Under the pieces are notes generated by a model, which saw only the letters and a program-made list of their open reading frames with translations, did not search any database and was not told the origin of the DNA. Positions 1,699 to 64,000 of a stretch of 64,000 nucleotides of DNA are shown piece by piece. Location of the stretch: NCBI GenBank assembly GCA_964016885.1, contig OZ024765.1, positions 10,106,001-10,170,000 of the forward strand, written 5' to 3'. The position numbers and the translations under genes were made by a program. This DNA comes from Eledone cirrhosa. Lineage: Eukaryota. Positions within the stretch are counted from its first letter, which is position 1. Every line of letters begins with the position of its first letter.

Positions 1699-2135
1699 AG
1701 GAAAAAAGATGAAATTGAAAATGCAACTGGAGTCTTATTTTAAAAAATATATATATATTTATTTGGTTCCTTTACCAGTTTCGCAGTTCTTCTGCTTTTA
1801 AAAAGTAGAGTTGAGATGGGGGGTCTGTGGTTTTTCTGTGTAGGACACCTCACTTTCTAATATATACATATATATATATATATACATATATATATAAGTA
1901 TCAAAATGAAAATCCGAAAGCAAGGTAAAATTCCAATCATTTAATCACGACACATGTTTCAATAAGAGATAGATCGATTGTGAAGCCATGATCGATTATC
2001 ACTGATCTCATCAGGTGAAAATGAATTGTCTTCAAATTCTTGATATGAGGGAGAAAAAATATGAGGGAATGAATTCTGTGAGAGAACATCGATATTTTTT
2101 CTCCCTCATATCAAGAATTTGAAGACAATTCATTT

Positions 2136-2205
2136 TCACCTGATGAGATCAGTGATAATCATGACTTCACAATCGATCTATCTCTTATTGAAACATGTGT
2201 CGTGA
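2136..2205 (+). ncRNA. Type I hammerhead motif; inverted copy at 1945-2018 (-)
   Basis: TCAC-CTGATGA-(irregular stem II)-GAAAC atgt GTC-GTGA; lies in an inverted repeat with arms of about 165 bp (1893-2062 / 2092-2257). Confidence 0.65.
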
Positions 2206-3612: not shown

Positions 3613-3732
3613 TGACCTGTTTGAGCGATGGAGAATATGTACCAGCAGGACCAATAGGGGATTCAGGGTGTAACTGCACACTAGATGGCGTTATATGTAA
3701 AGGAAAACCTGATCCCGGCCCGTATGAACCAG
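3613..3732 (+). CDS. Cys-module exon 1 ([39 protein letters not shown])
   Basis: TAG acceptor, CAG|GTAAT donor, 120 nt, open frame. Confidence 0.85.
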
Positions 3733-6700
3733 GTAATTATGGTATTACAATTATCTCAGGTGTGGGTGTGGGTGTGGGTGTGTGTATGTGTGTGTGTGTG
3801 TGTGTGTGTCTGTGTGTGCCTGGTTATGTGTGTCTGGGTGTGTGTGTGTGTGTCTGGGTGTGTGTGTGTGTCTGGGTGTGTGGGGGTCAGAGTGTATGTG
3901 TCTGTGTGTGTGTCTGGGTGTGTGTGTGTTGGGGTCAGAGTGTATGTGTCTGTGTGTGTGTCTGGGTGTGTGTATGTGTCTGTGTGTGTGTCTGGGTGTG
4001 TGTGTGTGTCTGGGTGTGTTGGGGTCAGAGTGTATGTGTCTGTGTGTGTGTCTGGGTGTGTGTGTGTGTCTGGGTGTGTGTGTGTGTCTGGGTGTGTTGG
4101 GGTCAGAGTGTATGTGTCTGTGTGTGTGTCTGGGTGTGTGTGTGTGTCTGGGTGTGTGTGTGTGTCTGGGTGTGTTGGGGTCAGAGTGTATGTGTCTGTG
4201 TGTGTGTCTGGGTGTGTTGGGGTCAGAGTGTATGTGTCTGTGTGTGTGTCTGGGTGTGTGTGTGTGTCTGGGTGTGTTGGGGTCAGAGTGTATGTGTCTG
4301 TGTGTGTGTCTGGGTGTGTGTGTGTGTCTGGGTGTGTTGGGGTCAGAGTGTATGTGTCTGTGTGTGTGTCTGGGTGTGTTGGGGTCAGAGTGTATGTGTC
4401 TGTGTGTGTGTCTGGGTGTGTGTGTGTGTCTGGGTGTGTTGGGGTCAGAGTGTATGTGTCTGTGTGTGTGTCTGGGTGTGTTGGGGTCAGAGTGTATGTG
4501 TCTGTGTGTGTGTCTGGGTGTGTGTGTGTGTCTGGGTGTGTGTGTGTGTCTGGGTGTGTTGGGGTCAGAGTGTATGTGTCTGGGTGTGTTGGGGTCAGAG
4601 TGTATGTGTCTGTGTGTGTGTCTGGGTGTGTGTGTGTGTCTGGGTGTGTGTGTGTGTCTGGGTGTGTTGGGGTCAGAGTGTATGTGTCTGTGTGTGTGTC
4701 TGGGTGTGTGTGTGTGTCTGGGTGTGTGTGTGTGTCTGGGTGTGTTGGGGTCAGAGTGTATGTGTCTGTGTGTGTGTCTGGGTGTGTTGGGGTCAGAGTG
4801 TATGTGTCTGTGTGTGTGTCTGGGTGTGTGTGTGTGTCTGGGTGTGTTGGGGTCAGAGTGTATGTGTCTGTGTGTGTGTCTGGGTGTGTTGGGGTCAGAG
4901 TGTATGTGTCTGTGTGTGTGTCTGGGTGTGTTGGGGTCAGAGTGTATGTGTCTGTGTGTGTGTCTGGGTGTGTGTGTGTGTCTGGGTGTGTTGGGGTCAG
5001 AGTGTATGTGTCTGTGTGTGTGTCTGGGTGTGTGTGTGTGTCTGGGTGTGTGTGTGTGTCTGGGTGTGTTGGGGTCAGAGTGTATGTGTCTGGGTGTGTT
5101 GGGGTCAGAGTGTATGTGTCTGTGTGTGTGTCTGGGTGTGTGTGTGTGTCTGGGTGTGTGTGTGTGTCTGGGTGTGTTGGGGTCAGAGTGTATGTGTCTG
5201 TGTGTGTGTCTGGGTGTGTGTGTGTGTCTGGGTGTGTGTGTGTGTCTGGGTGTGTTGGGGTCAGAGTGTATGTGTCTGTGTGTGTGTCTGGGTGTGTTGG
5301 GGTCAGAGTGTATGTGTCTGTGTGTGTGTCTGGGTGTGTTGGGGTCAGAGTGTATGTGTCTGTGTGTGTGTCTGGGTGTGTGTGTGTGTCTGGGTGTGTT
5401 GGGGTCAGAGTGTATGTGTCTGTGTGTGTGTCTGGGTGTGTTGGGGTCAGAGTGTATGTGTCTGTGTGTGTGTCTGGGTGTGTTGGGGTCAGAGTGTATG
5501 TGTCTGTGTGTGTGTCTGGGTGTGTGTGTGTGTCTGGGTGTGTTGGGGTCAGAGTGTATGTGTCTGTGTGTGTGTCTGGGTGTGTTGGGGTCAGAGTGTA
5601 TGTGTCTGTGTGTGTGTCTGGGTGTGTTGGGGTCAGAGTGTATGTGTCTGTGTGTGTGTCTGGGTGTGTTGGGGTCAGAGTGTATGTGTCTGTGTGTGTG
5701 TCTGGGTGTGTGTGTGTGTCTGGGTGTGTTGGGGTCAGAGTGTATGTGTCTGTGTGTGTGTCTGGGTGTGTGTGTGTGTCTGGGTGTGTTGGGGTCAGAG
5801 TGTATGTGTCTGTGTGTGTGTCTGGGTGTGTGTGTGTGTCTGGGTGTGTTGGGGTCAGAGTGTATGTGTCTGCCTGTGTGTGTGTCTGGGTGTGTGTGTC
5901 TGGGTGGCTGTGTCTGTGTGTGTGTCTGGGTGTGTATGTGTCTAGGTGTGTCTGGGTGTGTGTGAGTGTCTACGTGTGTGTATGTGTGTGTGCATGCATG
6001 TGTGTATGTATGTGTCAGTGTATGTGTGTGTGTCAGTGTGTGTGTATGTGCATGCATGTGTGTATGTATGTGTCAGTGTATGTGTGTGACAGTGTGTGTG
6101 TATGTGCATGCATGTGTGTATGTATGTGTCAGTGTATGTGTGTGTGTGTCAGTGTGTGTGTATGTGCATGCATGTGTGTATGTATGTGTCAGTGTATGTG
6201 TGTGTGTGTCAGTGTGTGTGTATGTGCATGCATGTGTGTATGTATGTGTCAGTGTATGTGTGTGTGTGTCAGTGTGTGTGTATGTGCATGCATGTGTGTA
6301 TGTATGTGTCAGTGTATGTGTGTGTCAGTGTGTGTGTCTGTGTGTGTGCATGCATGTGTGTATGTCAGTGTGTGTGTGTCAGTGTGTGAATGTGTCAAGG
6401 TGTGTGTGTGTCAGTGTGTGTGTGTCAAGGTGTGTATGTGTCAAGGTGTGTATGTATCAGTGTGTGTGTGTCAGTGTGTGTGTGTCAGTGTGTGTTTGTG
6501 TCAGTGTATGTGTCAGTGTGTGTGTGTCAGTGTGTGTGTGTGTGTCAGTGTGTGTGTGTGTGTCAGTGTGTGTGTGTGTGTCAGTGTGTGTGTGTGTGTG
6601 TGTGTGTGTCAGTGTGTGTGTGTGTATGTGTCAGTGTATGTGTCAGTGTGTGTGTGTGTGTCAGTGTGTGTGTATGTCACTTTACAAATGTGTACTGTAA

Positions 6701-8757
6701 ATGAAACAATGCCAAGTATTTAACCCTTTTGACATCAACCCACCCTGGAACTCTCCAGAAGCCCCCAGTCACCTAGAACACCCTGGGACCCAATGGAATC
6801 CCCTAGAACACTCTGGGAGCCAGTGGAATCCCCTGGAACACTCTGGGAGCCAGTGGAATCACCTAAAACACTCTGGGACCCAATGGATTCCCTGGAATAC
6901 TCTGGGACTCTGTGGAATCCCCTGGAACACTCTAGGGCCCAGTAGAATCCCCTGGAACACTCTGGGGCCCAGTGGAATCACCTGGAACACTCTGGGGCCC
7001 AGTGAAGTCCCCTGGAACACTCTGAGACCCAGTGGAATCCCCTGGAACACTCTGGAACACTCTGGAACCCAGTGGAATCCCCTGGAACACTCTGGGACCC
7101 AGTGGAATCACCTGGAACACTCTGGGACCCAGTGGAATCACCTGGAACACTCTGGGGCCCAATGGAATCCCCTGGAACACTCTGGGGCCCAGTGGAATCC
7201 CCTGGAACACTCTGGGGCCCAGTGAAATCCCCTGGAACACTCTGGGACCCAGTGGAATCCCCTGGAACACTCTGGGACCCAGTGGAATCCCCTGGAACAC
7301 TCTGGGGCCCAGTGGAATCACCTAGAACACTCTGGATGCAGGGCCCAATTTAGACCTTCCGGGGTAGTCATCATACACAAAAAATTAGAATACACAGCAA
7401 ACTCCCAATTTTAAATATCAAAGTCAGCTTGGCGCAAGTAACTGGATTTGAAAAGTTATACATACAGGTGTTAAATTCGAAAATTCTAACCATCCTAAAA
7501 CTAAAAAGCCCAGCTGAGGGCACAAATAAAATGCTATGGCCGTCACTGATAAGAACCTCCTCCCCCCTCCCCTCCACTGTGGTGGATGGGGTGGTGGTGG
7601 GGAGCGGACGGTGGGGGTACATGGGGTGGTGAAGGACCCGGAATATGGACACCCGTATTCCCCCCACCGGAGGCTGAGAACGAGACTGGTAATTATCTCC
7701 TTTGTTACCAAATTAGTACATCTTTTCCCTGATGAGAAGACAAATACATATGCTAACCTCTTTGATATGAAATTAGTACTCTTTTCAGGATAACAATATA
7801 ATTATTAACCCTTTAGAATTCACATTACTCTATGAATACTACTGTATTTTCATGGTAAAGGCTTTATCTCACATAATATCGAATCTATGAGATTTTCATA
7901 TTATTTATTTTGAGAACAATACCTTAACATCAGTTTGAGCGACCAGTTACAGCCAGTTTCAACAGAAAGAGGTAGAGAATTCTGGCTGGTTTTGGCCGGT
8001 TTAAACATTAAAGGGTTAAGGTCAGTATTTCCATTAAGCGATGTGCATGTCTTCTGATGAGAAGCCAAATACATATGCTAACTCCTTTGATACGAAATTA
8101 GTACTCTTTACAGGATAACAATATAATTATTACAGTAAGTATTCCCATTAGGCGATGTACATATCTTCTTATGACAACCCAAATACATATGCAAATCAAT
8201 TCAAGATATTTAGGAACTTTTTCAATTTGCAGGGAAGAAAGGAAGTATGTAAAATGTTATGTTAACATATCTATATTTTCAATGTGTAAATTTACATACA
8301 TATTTACACAGTCTACATATAGAGAGTTCACCAGGAAAATGTATACACATTTCAGCAAAAGAAAAAAAATTTATAAATATTTTTCTTGCTTAAATACCTC
8401 TTTCGAAAGTTATATCTAAACATATATATATGTTTTTGATCCTCTCCTTTGTTCTGTCATACGCCATAACAAAGGAGAGGCACAAAAACAAAGAAAAGAA
8501 TCCCCAGTCACTGAAGAGGTCACAGATTGTGTGACGAAAGAACTTTGACAATATATGAACAATCATCTGGTTGTGGAACCAACCAACCAACCGGAAATTT
8601 ATAAATTCCTAAATTTATAAATTTATTATAATAAATTGAAGTGAAAGCAAGTGGTGCGTGTGTTTCTTATTGGCAACATGACCCTCCCAAAGTATAACAA
8701 TATCGGTTTAAACACACGTTTTCAGATAAAGAATCTTGCTAAACAAATTCAGAAACG

Positions 8758-8819
<62 letters not shown>

Positions 8820-11800
8820 ATAATAATAAATTTGAAGACTAAAATCCAAAGAGGGCTCGATTAGGATAAATATATATCAAATATATAAGAACCGTAGAGC
8901 AAATGTTTATTAAAATAACAGATTAAAGTTTAAGCAAAGAATTGCTGCTTTCACTCTTAACGGGATCTTATATATATATATGAGTACCTATGAATACCTG
9001 AGAGTACCTGGGAGTACCTAGAGTACCTGAGACTAACTATGTGTATATTCTTTCTTTTTCTTGTACAGATGTTCAATGTTTGTTTAAAGGTGATCTGAAA
9101 CCAATTGGAAGAATCAATTCATTTTGTAATTGTACGAAAGATGGCAGAGTTTTATGTAACACTACCGATGATTTTAGTATGGATGACGTTCCAGGTAAGA
9201 CTCCTCTTACTTCCCATTCACCTTCCTCAGGTAAAGCTCCCCCTTCTTCACCTCACCCTTCACCTTCCACCTGTACAGGTAAGACTCCTCCTACTGCTCT
9301 TTCACCTTCCTCAAGTAAGCTCCTCCTCCTTCCACCTGTACAGGTAAAGCTCCTCCTCCTCCTTCCTCAGGTAAGCCTCCTCCTTCCTCAGGTAAGCTCC
9401 TCCTCCTTCTTAACTACTAAAGGTTAACTACTAAAGGTTAACTACTAAAGGTTAACTACTAAAGGTTAACTACTAAAGGTTAACTACTAAAGGTTAACTA
9501 CTAAAAGTTAAATACTAACGGGTTAAATACTAAAGGGTTAACTACTAAAGGGTTAACTACTAAAGGGTTAACTATTAAAGGTTAACTACTAAAGGTTAAC
9601 TACTAAAGGTTAACTACTAAAAGTTAACTACTAAAGGTTAACTACTAAAGGTTAACTATTAAAGGTTAACTACTAAAGGTTAACTACTAAAAGTTAAATA
9701 CTAACGGGTTAAATACTAAAGGGTTAACTACTAAAGGGTTAACTACTAAAGGTTAACTACTAAAGATTAAAGTTTAAGCAAAGAATTGCTGCTCAAAGAA
9801 TTGCTGCTTAAAGAATTGCAGATTAAAGTTTAAGCAAAGAATTGCTGCTTTCACCCTTAACGGGATCTTATATATATATATGAGTACCTATGAATACCTG
9901 AGAGTACCTGGGAGTACCTAGAGTACCTGAGACTAACTATGTGTATATTCTTTCTTTTTCTTGTACAGATGTTCAATGTTTGTTTAAAGGTGAACCAAAA
10001 CCAATTGGAAGAATCAATTCATTTTGTAATTGTACGAAAGATGGCAGAGTTTTATGTAACACTACCGATGATTTTAATATAGATATCATTCCAGGTAAGA
10101 CTCCTCCTACTGCTCTTTCACCTTCCTCAAGTAAGCTCCTCCTCCTTCACCTCCTCCTTCCACCTGTACAGGTAAAGCTCCTCCTCCTCCTCCTTCCTCA
10201 GGTAAGCTCCTCCTCCTTCTTAACTATTAAAGGTTAACTGCTAAAGGTATGTGTGTGTGTGTGTGTGTCTGTGTGTGTGTCAGTGTGTGTGCATGCATGC
10301 GTGTATGTATGTGTCAGTGTGTGTGTATGTGTCAGTGTGTGTATGTGTCAGTGTGTATGTGTCAGTGTGTATGTGTCAGTGTGTATGTGTCAGTGTGTGT
10401 ATGTGTCAGTGTGTGTGTGTGTGTCAGTGTGTGTGTATGTCACTTTACAAATGTGTACTGTAAATGAAACAATGCCAAGTATTTAATCCTTTTGACATCA
10501 ACCCACCCTGGAACTCTCCAGAAGCCCCCAGTCACCTAGAACACCCTGGGACCCAATGGAATCCCTTACAACACTCTGGAACCCAGTGGAATCCCCTGGA
10601 ACACTCTGGGGCCCAGTGGAATACCCTGGAAAACTCTGGGGCCCAGTGGAATCACCTAGAACACTCTGGGGCCCAGTGGAATGCCCTAGAACACTCTGGG
10701 ACCCAGTGGAATCCCTGGAACACTCTGGGGCCCAGTGGAATCCCCTGGAACACTCTGGGGCCCAGTGGAATCACCCAGAACACTCTGGGGCCCAGTGGAA
10801 TCCCTTAGAACACTCTGGAACCCAGTGGAATCCCCTGGAACACTCTGGGGCCCAGTGGAATACCCTGGAACACTCTAGGGCCCAGTGGAATACCCTGGAA
10901 CACTCTGGGGCCCAGTGGAATCACCTAGAACACTCTGGGGCCCAGTGGAATACCCTGGAACACTCTGGGGCCCAGTGGAATCACCTAGAACACTCTGGGG
11001 CCCAGTGGAATGCCCTAGAACACTCTGGGACCCAGTGGAATCCCTGGAACACTCTGGGGCCCAGTGGAATCACCCAGAACACTCTGGGGCCCAGTGGAAT
11101 CCCCTGGAACACTCTGGGGCCCAGTGGAATACCCTGGAACACTCTGGGGCCCAGTGGAATACCCTGGAACACTCTGGGGCCCAGTGGAATCACCTAGAAC
11201 ACTCTGGGGCCCAGTGGAATACCCTGGAACACTCTGGGGCCCAGTGGAATCACCTAGAACACTCTGGGGCCCAGTGGAATGCCCTAGAACACTCTGGGAC
11301 CCAGTGGAATCCCTGGAACACTCTGGGGCCCAGTGGAATCACCCAGAACACTCTGGGGCCCAGTGGAATCCCCTGGAACACTCTGGGGCCCAGTGGAATC
11401 ACCTAGAACACTCTGGGACCCAGTGGAATCCCCTGGAACATTCTGGGGCCCAGTGGAATCCCCTAGAACACTCTGGGACCCAGTGGAATCACCTAGAACA
11501 GTCTGGGACCCAGTGGAATCCCCTAGAACACTCTGGGACCCAGTGGAATCCCTTGGTAGACCCTGGAACATCTTGGTATCTGCTGGAACTCCCTGGAACT
11601 CTACTCTGCTTCTATGATAAAAATCTATTTCGATTAGAGTTCATATTTATCAAAAAACCTTCCTCCATATTTCTATATACAAACTTTTATTAACCCTTTA
11701 GCATTTAAACCGGTCATATCCAACCAGAATTCTCTCACCTCTTTCTATTCAAACTGGCTGTTACCAGCTATTCATATTTATGTTAAGGTATTGTTCTCAA

Positions 11801-13508
11801 AATAATTATCAAGATCTCATAGATTTGATATTATGTGAGATAATTATGTGAAATAAAGAGTTTATGGTGAAAATATAATAGTAAATATAGAATAATGTCA
11901 ATGCTAAAGGGTTAAGTTATGTCCAAACACCAGCTTAACCCTTTTGATATCAAACCCCACTGGAACCTCACCTCTGGTTCTATGTCAAAAAACTGTTTAG
12001 TTTAAAGGGTCCATATTTGATACAAAACCACCTAAACCTCCAACCTGTTCCTATGATAACCTTTTTATTTATCTAAAAGTCTTCCATCTATATTCTGCAT
12101 AAGAACCTTTGTTAAGTTGTGTTCCAAACAACAGCTTAACCCTTTTGATACCAAACTACCCTGTTTCTACGATAAAAATTTTTATATTTATCAAAAAATT
12201 TTCCATCATAATTCTAGATAAGAGCCTTTGTTAAGTTATATTCCATCAGATCTGAGTTGGTACTCAAAGTGAAGTAACAGTCCGTACAGTGGGATACGAT
12301 CCTGTACGAATGCCCAAACAGGCCAGGGGACCACAACTGGCTTATACATTGCTATGCGCTACCAAGTTCATTTTATCATGACACCATTATAGGATCAGTC
12401 TACAGAGTGTACTGGGTGCCTTTATAATGTAAATCACCAACACTAGGGAGACAGTCATGTCTTTGACAAAACTAAAAAATTCTCTCATCACTTTGTTAAG
12501 CAAGTTTACTATGGCTGGATGCAGGGCCCAATTTAGACCTTCGGGGGTAGTCATCATACATAAAAAATTAGAATACACAGCAAACTCCCAATTTTAAATA
12601 TCAAAGTCAGCTTGGCGCAAGTAACTGGATTTGAAAAGTTATACATACAGGTGTTAAATTCGAAAATTCTAATCATCCTAAAACTAAAAGGCCCAGCTGA
12701 GGGCACAAATAAAATGCTATGGCCGTCACTAATAAGAACCCCCCCCCCACTCCACTGTAGAGAGCCTGGGGCAATGTTTCCCTTTTCCCTCCTCCCCATT
12801 AGTAATTTGATTACCTCATACTACTCCTTTCGCTTTACGTCTGCTGCCTGCATGAATGTATGTGTGTGTAAAAGGAAGGGGATGGTGAAAACAACAAAAA
12901 CAGAGTGCTGCTACCTCTCTTGTTATGACTACCTCATACTACTCCTCTCTCTTTACATCTGAACGCTAACCACATTAGAGCACTAAATATATTCCATCAT
13001 GAAGGTACGTGGCTGAGTGGTTAGAGAGTTGGATTCACAATCGCGAGGTTGTGATTTCAATTTCCAGACCGGGCGATGCGTTATGTCCTTCAATAAGACA
13101 CTTTATTTCACGTTGCTCTTTTTATGTGGAGTTGCGACTGATAGATAATATTAGCAATTGGAAAGACCAATGGAAACATTGTTTCCTCCGTTTGATTTGA
13201 CGAGCACCACCCCACTCGTTAAGCAACTGAGGTCTGGGATCTTATCGATCAGCAGTCTACATATATATTCCATTGTAATGTGTGTATTGAGTACTCTAAC
13301 TTTGTGAGCTTTCCTTTACTTCTTCAGAGAAACCATGTTCCTATAAAGGGGAACTTGTAGGTCCCGGTCAGATTGGAAATTCAGGATGTAACTGCACAAA
13401 CGGAACTGTTGTATGTGATAAACGAAAAGGTTGGTAAACCCTTTATTACAATATTTGTAGGGATTTAATAATATAGCTAACCTCCTCATCTTTAACTTCT
13501 TCAGTACC

Positions 13509-13539
<31 letters not shown>

Positions 13540-13812
13540 CGCTGTAATGTGGCCATGTAGGTAACAGGGTAAAAAGTTCCCATTTCCACGCTGTAAATGT
13601 GGTTGGTGTTAGGTAGGGCATCCAGCCGTAGAAAACCTGCCAAACAGACCTATATGAGCAAGACACGGTCACCCGACCAACCTTGCCTCAAGTGGGACAA
13701 CTCCCGTCTAACCCATGCTAGCGTGGAAAATGGACGTTAAACGAAGATGATGATGATGATGATGATAGATGTATATATATATATGTATATATGTATATAT
13801 ATATATATATTC

Positions 13813-13868
<56 letters not shown>

Positions 13869-43635: not shown

Positions 43636-43786
43636 TACGATATTAATAAATGGAAACTATATTTATTTCATTATACATATTTCAGGGATACCACATTAAA
43701 TTTTGGTATGCCTTCATCAGATAAAATACAATATATAACAGTTTTACAAATAGGTTTGACGTACCCTTTAAAACTGTTATATATTG

Positions 43787-43851
43787 TATTTTATCTGATG
43801 AAGGCATACCAAAATTTAATGTGGTATCCCTGAAATATGTATAATGAAATA
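43787..43851 (+). ncRNA. Type I hammerhead motif; inverted copy at 43664-43728 (-)
   Basis: TATTTTAT-CTGATGA-AGGcATACCA..TGGTATcCCT-GAAATATGTATA-ATGAAATA. Confidence 0.8.
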
Positions 43852-44650
43852 AATATGGTTTTATAAATATAGTTTCCATTTATTAATATCGTATATATAC
43901 TCCAAAAATGTGTCGAGTGCTTTATGTCGGTTATAAATATATCCCAACAACTTTAAATAGAACTTTTGCATATATATATATATATATATATTTATCAAGA
44001 TAACAGATTAAAGTTTAAGCAAAGAATCGCTGCTTTCACCCTTAACGGGATCTTCTGAAACAGTTTCAGAAGATCCCGTTAAGGGTGAAAGCAGCGAATC
44101 TTTGCTTAAACTTTAATCTGTTATTTTAATAAATATTTGCTCTACGGTTCTTATATATTTGATATATATTTATCCTTATCGAGCCCTCTTTGGATTTTAA
44201 TCTTCAATTTTATTATTATTACTATATATATATATATATATATATATATTAGGGTAAACATTGATGCAATTCAATTCAAGCACTCAACGTACTTTTTCCA
44301 CATAGGAGTGACGGAGTAAATATCGAATAAGTAAAAGCGAAGTAGTTTCAGATGTTCAAGTCCTTTAATAATAATGCTGTGATATATATTTCAATGACGA
44401 CACTGGCCACACTGTTCTGTGTGCGAGTGTCGTGACAGCATCAGACAGCTTGTTACATAACATGACAGCGAATTTCGTTGAAATCTGCGGTGCTAATGGC
44501 CAACTTCCTTCGAACATGCGCTTGCGCAGACCGGTGGGGGTGAATTGGTACTCACAAGGGAACGGATGAAAAACCCAAAAGCACGAACTTCGTCCGTTCC
44601 CATGTCGATTCAATTTGGATTGCCTCGGAAACAACCTTATTATGTAACAA

Positions 44651-44849: not shown

Positions 44850-63912
<19,063 letters not shown>

Positions 63913-64000
63913 CTGCAATAACAAAAACAAAAAACCATTTATAAGCGATATATATACAGCCGTAGACTAGCTCAGACTGTTGTTTCTAGAATCAAATGTA

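What the first reader, a model, noticed from the sequence alone, without database searches (positions are those of the whole stretch)
8920..10240. Recent exon duplication whose differences concentrate in amino-acid-changing codons
Seen: exons 9069-9194 and 9969-10094 differ at 8 nt in 6 codons, and every affected codon changes the residue (D>E, L>P, S>N, M>I, D>I, V>I). No purely synonymous codon differs. The 149 nt of intron upstream of each exon differs at only 1 nt. Cysteines, sequons and splice sites are untouched, and the changes cluster in the first loop and the C-terminal linker. Inference: diversifying selection on a new module, as seen in toxin, gamete-recognition and immune proteins, or patchy gene conversion. 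The pair could also be alternatively or mutually exclusively spliced.
Basis: partly seen in the sequence, partly recalled or inferred. Interest (0 to 1): 0.72.

Follow-up and report, generated by a model that had tools for sequence, protein, structure and literature searches.

The report
Young duplicated exon, selection unproven
An octopod gene for a likely secreted, disulfide-bonded repeat protein carries two near-identical copies of one predicted exon; every differing codon changes the amino acid, but chance and clustered mutation can account for that, so adaptive evolution remains unproven.

Summary
The counts are right: 9069-9194 and 9969-10094 differ at 8 nt in 6 codons, all residue-changing, against 1 nt in the upstream intron. 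The selection reading is not supported. CTG/CCA needs one silent step, so the tally is 7 nonsynonymous to 1 synonymous (dN/dS 1.9, P=0.49). The changes sit in two tight clusters (P about 1e-4). The duplication is very likely real: copy B starts with three abortive templated copies of its own start, one sample's contigs hold three versions of the exon's 3' end, and reads of two other samples match copy B. Copy A's 5' cluster was not seen in reads. The exon is one of five phase 1-1 exons for a 4-cysteine module with a weakly FN1/VWC-like predicted fold. The gene's likely positional orthologue in Octopus vulgaris (CAI9741643.1, next accession to XPB) has a signal-like N-terminus, module cores only 25-52% identical to the window's, and its own identical module pair. 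Verdict: ordinary exon duplication in a fast-evolving octopod secreted protein. Selection is possible but not shown.

The parts
3613..3732 (+). Predicted exon E1, 4-Cys module (first module in the window; the gene's 5' part lies upstream of the window)
   Evidence: AG/GT, 120 nt, phase 1-1, NCT sequon; aligns with the other modules
6677..7557 (+). Intron block X (unique 125 nt + 30-mer minisatellite + unique 226 nt), near-identical to block X' after E2b
   Evidence: 1 of 125 and 5 of 226 nt differ
8790..8969 (.). Fragment of a high-copy dispersed repeat; the duplicated unit begins inside it at 8919/8920
   Evidence: 93-96% matches at 24650-24858 and 44070-44249; very high depth in all four runs
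8920..9438 (+). Duplicated unit, copy A (intron end, exon E2a, donor-like minisatellite, first satellite units)
9069..9194 (+). Predicted exon E2a, 4-Cys module plus linker
   Evidence: AlphaFold pLDDT about 90 for residues 1-30, 52 and 43 for the linker
9195..9278 (+). 84-nt donor-like unit found only after E2a; ends at an in-frame spare CAG|GTAAGA donor (9279)
9410..9763 (+). Satellite of about 14-nt units (25 units) between the copies
9764..9819 (+). Duplication junction: three abortive templated copies of the unit's start (=8920-8949, 8935-8950, 8936-8945)
   Evidence: not resolved by reads because it lies in a high-copy repeat
9820..10248 (+). Duplicated unit, copy B
   Evidence: from 10028 to 10250 matched without listed differences by 7 and 14-15 reads of two other samples
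9969..10094 (+). Predicted exon E2b
   Evidence: contigs of X1, X2
10440..12740 (+). Intron block X' (counterpart of X, with extra sequence between its two unique parts)
13328..13429 (+). Predicted exon E3, 4-Cys module (weaker donor GTTGGT)
   Evidence: 102 nt, phase 1-1
19783..19883 (+). Predicted last coding exon E4, divergent 4-Cys module, stop at 19881-19883
   Evidence: no further module in six frames
44853..63914 (-). Neighbouring XPB/ERCC3 gene (its 3' part), used as taxon and synteny anchor
   Evidence: 476 of 493 covered residues identical to O. vulgaris XPB; one exon 100% identical to Octopus and Argonauta, 96% or less to other named molluscs

Best explanation
The two predicted exons are most likely a real, young tandem duplicate of one module exon in a likely secreted octopod repeat protein, and their differences likely come from a few clustered mutation events in loosely constrained positions rather than from demonstrated selection. 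Shown: the 8 differences, the templated junction, the five in-frame module exons, three versions of the 3' end in one sample. Inferred mechanism: error-prone break repair restarted three times at 8920 and then copied about 0.5 kb, giving a symmetric phase 1-1 exon that would be spliced in tandem and add one more disulfide-bonded FN1/VWC-like bead to a glycosylated beads-on-a-string extracellular protein. The likely effect is one more binding unit in a matrix or secretion protein. Afterwards about two multi-base events and a few single changes accumulated, mostly in the flexible linker, with some exchange between copies or alleles.
For: 7N/1S, P=0.49; clusters P=1.3e-4. 5 of 7 replacements lie after the last Cys, where pLDDT is 52 or lower (linker vs core P=0.047). 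In the Cys core pN 0.03 < pS 0.05, and among E1/E2/E3 pN 0.33-0.37 < pS 0.50-0.75. The 3' cluster abuts the 84-nt intron indel. Junction = three serial templated copies, a signature of alternative end joining (PMC7407515, passages). Three 3' versions in sample S1, depths 10/4.8/4 in X1 and 11/4.6/about 6 (by subtraction) in X2, graph arithmetic consistent. Copy B matched in two further samples. All inclusion patterns keep the frame. Multi-base mutations are mostly nonsynonymous and mimic selection (10.1101/165969, abstract). Likely orthologue with signal-like N-terminus and modules.
Against: The exon differs more than the upstream intron (8/126 vs 1/151, P=0.013) and than pooled intron blocks (7/501, P=0.004). 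The third version adds another replacement at the same codon as S/N (inferred His), so one codon has three residues; 8N/1S is still P=0.41. Module cores are only 25-52% identical to O. vulgaris (33-52% without E4) against 96.6% for XPB, which suits selection as well as relaxation. No local template explains either cluster convincingly. A's 5' cluster and the junction have no read support. No RNA evidence that the exons are used.
Confidence: 0.6

Rival explanations
1. Diversifying selection acts on the new module: a recognition protein (gamete, immune or venom type) gains new binding surfaces, and replacements are fixed faster than silent changes.
For: dN/dS point estimate 1.9; exon excess over introns P=0.013 and 0.004; three residues at one codon in one sample (third codon inferred); fast divergence from the O. 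vulgaris protein and an identical 35-aa module pair there.
Against: P=0.49 against neutrality; two clusters, so few independent events; core pN < pS; most changes in the linker. No expression or function data.
Confidence: 0.2
2. The duplicate is older than it looks. Gene conversion keeps most of it identical, and the two clusters are islands of divergence, kept by chance or by selection against conversion.
For: Runs of 138 and 79 identical nt between clusters; the third version appears B-like at the 5' cluster and A-like at the 3' end (inferred); intron blocks X and X' are 98% alike although their neighbouring exons are 58-66% alike; peaks of divergence under conversion are a described signature (PMC3924837, passages).
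Against: The three junction copies still match their template exactly, which fits a young event; no orthologous pair from a sister species was available.
Confidence: 0.13
3. The two copies are alleles of one exon joined in tandem by the assembler.
For: No read or contig was shown to span from A to B; the junction lies in high-copy repeat; A's 5' cluster is absent from the contigs laid. S1 may be the assembled sample, or a pool.
Against: Three 3' versions in one sample exceed two alleles of a diploid; the X2 contig ends at 10226, just where the A and B 3' flanks part; the copies have different 3' flanks and a templated junction that an assembler is unlikely to invent (inference).
Confidence: 0.07
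4. E2a and E2b are mutually exclusive exons that give two isoforms (this can hold together with any of the above).
For: Equal length, same phase, identical splice sites.
Against: 774-nt intron, joint inclusion keeps the frame, no complementary docking site beyond simple repeats and 12-nt palindromes; the other modules are arranged for serial inclusion, and the O. vulgaris model holds its identical pair in tandem.
Confidence: 0.07

Closest known systems
Octopus vulgaris CAI9741643.1 (hypothetical protein; UniRef automatic name Kielin/chordin-like; 392 aa)
   Same: Same 4-Cys module with NCT sequon (E=5.9e-4 over 1.84 billion proteins; hhalign probability 87%). It also carries a young module pair (35 aa identical).
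   Different: Module cores only 25-52% identical; 3 clear modules against 5 here; one-to-one module orthology unresolved. Its identical pair may be a real duplication or an assembly or annotation artefact (not tested). Function not described in the papers searched.
Fibronectin type I module / N-terminal subdomain of VWC (CCN3, collagen IIA) / VWF and mucin E modules
   Same: Predicted small all-beta module with 4 Cys; these families fill 9 of the top 10 Foldseek rows and the top 17 VIA rows.
   Different: Scores are weak (Foldseek E>=1.7; best VIA Z 3.1, rmsd 4.2 over 36; CCN3 Z 2.9, rmsd 2.7 over 40). No Pfam fn1 or VWC match. Shorter Cys1-Cys2 spacing than FN1 and 4 rather than 10 Cys as in VWC (family patterns recalled).
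Argonaut eggcase kielin/chordin-like, VWC-only matrix proteins (10.1101/2021.07.10.451900)
   Same: Octopod proteins made only of VWC-type modules, the most abundant class in the eggcase matrix (section 13 read).
   Different: Their sequences were not seen, so homology is untested; they carry recognised VWC domains, these modules do not.
Pleurobrachia bachei repeat protein (EukProt EP00116 P011278)
   Same: Tandem 4-Cys modules with the same spacing, 22-48% identical cores.
   Different: Ctenophore; acidic spacers; separated from the octopod modules in the tree (94/99, drawn open). Shared origin or convergence not decided.

Membership tests
Tandem exon duplication (exon shuffling of a symmetric module exon) | Two collinear copies with exon and flanking intron, same phase at both ends | tested here: met
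Tandem exon duplication (exon shuffling of a symmetric module exon) | More than two versions in one diploid sample, or reads spanning both copies | tested here: inconclusive
   three 3' versions in S1, but S1's nature is not on record and no record spans both copies
Tandem exon duplication (exon shuffling of a symmetric module exon) | Both copies spliced into mRNA | not testable with these tools
   no RNA holder listed
Sequence under diversifying selection | dN significantly above dS | tested here: not met
   7/97.5 vs 1/25.5, P=0.49; power very low
Sequence under diversifying selection | Independent single-base replacements rather than multi-base events | tested here: not met
   two clusters, P=1.3e-4
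Sequence under diversifying selection | Excess replacement polymorphism or site-model support over many alleles and species | not testable with these tools
   only three versions and one distant relative found
Fibronectin type I module (Pfam fn1) | Pfam profile match | tested here: not met
   no match in 5 of 5 modules at E<=5 or in P0123 at E<=1
Fibronectin type I module (Pfam fn1) | Four Cys with a C-x-C pair (pattern recalled) | tested here: met
   5 of 5 modules
Fibronectin type I module (Pfam fn1) | FN1 fold | tested here: inconclusive
   top rows but Z<=3.1 and E>=1.7
VWC domain / kielin-chordin-like proteins | Ten-cysteine domain (recalled) | tested here: not met
   4 Cys per module; P0123 has one 6-Cys VWC-like stretch at 55-89
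VWC domain / kielin-chordin-like proteins | Pfam VWC, SVWC or TILa match | tested here: not met
VWC domain / kielin-chordin-like proteins | Fold of the VWC N-terminal subdomain | tested here: inconclusive
   CCN3 VWC rank 1; collagen IIA VWC rmsd 2.6 over 45 columns but E=0.27
Pacifastin protease inhibitors | Six-cysteine pattern (recalled) and Pfam match | tested here: not met
   4 Cys; no Pfam match
Mutually exclusive exon pair | Frame clash on joint inclusion | tested here: not met
Mutually exclusive exon pair | Intron too short, or competing RNA docking site | tested here: not met
   774 nt; no docking site found by a short inverted-match search
Mutually exclusive exon pair | No E2a-E2b junction reads | not testable with these tools
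   no RNA holder listed

The most novel reading that the evidence does not exclude
An undescribed octopod family of secreted proteins, sitting beside XPB, whose array of minimal 4-Cys FN1/VWC-like modules is rebuilt by independent exon duplications in each lineage and driven apart by diversifying selection, caught here in the act with three residues segregating at one codon. It would be a candidate recognition protein of gametes, immunity or venom.
Probability: 0.2. Interest if true: 0.6.

Novelty: new member of a known kind. Interest (0 to 1): 0.3.

Why it matters
As it stands, this is a clean small example of how a symmetric exon is duplicated by error-prone repair, and of how a few clustered changes mimic positive selection. 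It also points to an uncharacterised, fast-evolving octopod secreted protein that Pfam does not recognise. If selection were shown with more alleles and species, the gene would be a tractable candidate for a cephalopod recognition or secretion protein, with a very young duplicate in which divergence can be watched at population level.

Tried and rejected
No whole genome is held, so the gene's 5' exons and paralogues elsewhere could not be sought. No RNA holder listed; this says nothing on expression. Word-based homologue searches with the five-module alignment found nothing (longer: 0 of 46 candidates; near: none). PDB sequence searches: 2 chance rows, 0 for P0123. Atlas: best 0.80 bacterial rows, and no usable hit. 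Earlier findings: 4 look-ups, none. Local templates for the clusters: B's 5' variant forms a 6-nt tandem repeat, but 15% of positions in the exon do as well; a 14-nt match of A's variant at 61747 (inside XPB) is taken as chance. Module tree: unresolved, cannot show that the window's modules form a clade. Whole-protein model of P0123 is poor (mean pLDDT 53); its long Foldseek rows against clostridial repeat regions have TM about 0.1 and were set aside. RAD reads cannot test copy A: the only SphI-type sites among those checked in 8700-10700 lie 3' of B (the enzyme pair is my inference). Sepia egg-case proteins have another Cys motif (PMC4500399, passages): rejected. RNA editing was rejected as a source of the G/A differences, as both states stand in intron-containing DNA. 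Literature searches returned 0 papers; 29 and 74 one listing each, not read.

Full report
1. Observation. The two 126-nt segments 9069-9194 (E2a) and 9969-10094 (E2b) have AG and GT ends and phase 1-1. Cysteines, sequons and splice sites are the same. So the description is accurate.

2. Is it more than chance? No, on the pair's own counts. CTG versus CCA needs one silent step on either path, so the tally is 7 replacements in 97.5 sites and 1 silent change in 25.5: dN/dS 1.87, Fisher P=0.49. Eight random substitutions leave only residue-changing codons in 9-20% of trials, depending on transition bias. The exon does differ more than the upstream intron (P=0.013), but that test assumes independent sites, and the 8 changes lie in two clusters, 3 in 4 nt and 5 in 12 nt (P=1.3e-4). 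As 2 to 5 events the contrast is P=0.59 to 0.10. Five of the 7 replacements fall after the last cysteine, where the model is low in confidence; in the core pN 0.03 is below pS 0.05. Multi-base mutations are known to be mostly nonsynonymous and to mimic selection (10.1101/165969; abstract and outline seen).

3. Is the duplication real? Very likely. Copy B is preceded by three abortive copies of the unit's own start (9764-9793 = 8920-8949, 9794-9809 = 8935-8950, 9810-9819 = 8936-8945). Templated insertions mark synthesis-dependent alternative end joining (PMC7407515; passages seen); that an assembler would not invent them is my inference. I laid 4 of the 6 listed runs on copy B only. Contigs of sample S1 (X1, X2; kind not on record, possibly the assembled sample) hold three versions over 10046-10106: B exactly (depth 4.8 and 4.6), an A-type (4, and about 6 by subtraction), and a third with C at 10076 (10 and 11). 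The binned depths fit a three-path graph, from which the third codon is inferred to be His, followed by the A-type end. One diploid locus cannot give three versions; a pooled sample could. The ratio is near 2:1:1 (against 1:1:1, P=0.044 if depths are taken as counts), but the tool warns that contig depth is no copy number. RAD reads of two other samples (7 and 14-15 reads, nearly all starting at 10028, so perhaps few molecules) match B to 10250 with no listed difference. Against: one contig runs through 9849-10075 with a single other letter, so A's 5' cluster (3 of the 8 nt) is not seen; contigs drop variants, so this is neither support nor refutation. No record spans both copies, and the junction is buried under a high-copy repeat.

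4. What the gene is. The window is octopod DNA: an XPB exon is 100% identical to Octopus and Argonauta and 96% or less to other named molluscs. On the + strand five exons encode the same module, C-x15/17-C-x-C-x6/8-C: E1 3613-3732, E2a, E2b, E3 13328-13429 and E4 19783-19883 with the stop. All inclusion patterns keep the frame, no sixth module is in the window, and pN is below pS among E1, E2 and E3, which supports coding. The 5' end lies upstream of the window. A profile search of 1.84 billion proteins gave 2 hits: a ctenophore repeat protein and O. vulgaris CAI9741643.1. It has a hydrophobic N-terminus like a signal peptide, one 6-Cys VWC-like stretch, degenerate modules and three clear modules, the last two identical over 35 residues. 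Its module cores are 25-52% identical to the window's (33-52% without E4), while XPB is 96.6% identical over 493 residues. The window's E1, E2 and E3 are closer to each other (58-62%) than to any O. vulgaris module, which hints at turnover within lineages, but the tree does not resolve it.

5. Fold. AlphaFold gives a small all-beta module with pLDDT about 90 over 30 residues. Foldseek puts VWC, FN1 and VWF or mucin modules in 9 of its top 10 rows, and VIA in its top 17, but scores are weak (E>=1.7; Z<=3.1). Pfam finds nothing. The module probably folds like an FN1 module or the first half of a VWC domain; it is not filed as a member of either.

6. How it most likely works. Inferred: a secreted, N-glycosylated string of disulfide-bonded beads that binds partners multivalently in a matrix or secretion. 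VWC-only proteins are the most abundant class in the argonaut eggcase (10.1101/2021.07.10.451900; passages and section 13 seen); this is a lead only, since their sequences, in tables and supplements I could not see, were not compared. Error-prone repair duplicated about 0.5 kb around one symmetric exon and so would add one bead. A few clustered events then changed loop and linker residues that the protein tolerates. I give this 0.6. Diversifying selection (0.2) and an older pair kept alike by conversion with islands of divergence (0.13; PMC3924837, passages seen) remain open. Mis-assembled alleles (0.07) and mutually exclusive splicing (0.07) are unlikely.

7. Novelty and verdict. Exon duplication in modular secreted proteins is a known kind of event (general knowledge). 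I found no paper on this gene or module in ten searches, which cover open-licence PubMed Central and bioRxiv only. The feature is real and correctly described, the selection signal is within chance, and the host gene is an uncharacterised fast-evolving octopod protein worth a comparative look. Interest 0.3.

Noticed in passing
window 15865-19041 (+): Unbroken 1058-codon reading frame of a LINE (endonuclease, reverse transcriptase, PHD finger) inside the E3-E4 intron, with a 5'-truncated relative at 13741-15021; possibly a young element.
   Followed up: partly
window 6677-7557 and 10440-12740: The introns after E1 and after E2b share blocks 98% alike (6 of 351 nt differ) although E1 and E2 are 58-59% alike; X lacks the extra sequence that X' holds between its two unique parts. 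Recent intron copying or conversion, unexplained.
   Followed up: partly
window 9195-9400 and 10095-10210: The intron start is a minisatellite of donor-like units. After E2a, spare donors at 9231 and 9279 are in frame and would add 12 or 28 Pro/Ser/Thr-rich residues.
   Followed up: partly
window 10076 (runs X1 and X2): A third version of the exon's 3' end, the deepest of the three, has C at 10076; graph arithmetic implies a His codon followed by the A-type end.
   Followed up: partly
P0123 residues 294-328 and 330-364: The O. vulgaris relative holds a 35-residue module twice without a difference: a parallel young duplication or an artefact.
   Followed up: no
window 1994-2160, 23376-23648, 24963-25106, 43654-43861, 43988-44136, 57426-57653: Six near-perfect fold-back palindromes of non-simple sequence, arms 66-124 nt, loops 1-46 nt, mostly between (AT)n tracts.
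   Followed up: no
window 31327-32667: About 11 head-to-tail copies of a 113-nt piece of a dispersed SINE-like repeat.
   Followed up: no
window 44853-63914 (-): 3' part of XPB/ERCC3, 13 exon matches to O. vulgaris XPB; it converges on the module gene.
   Followed up: yes
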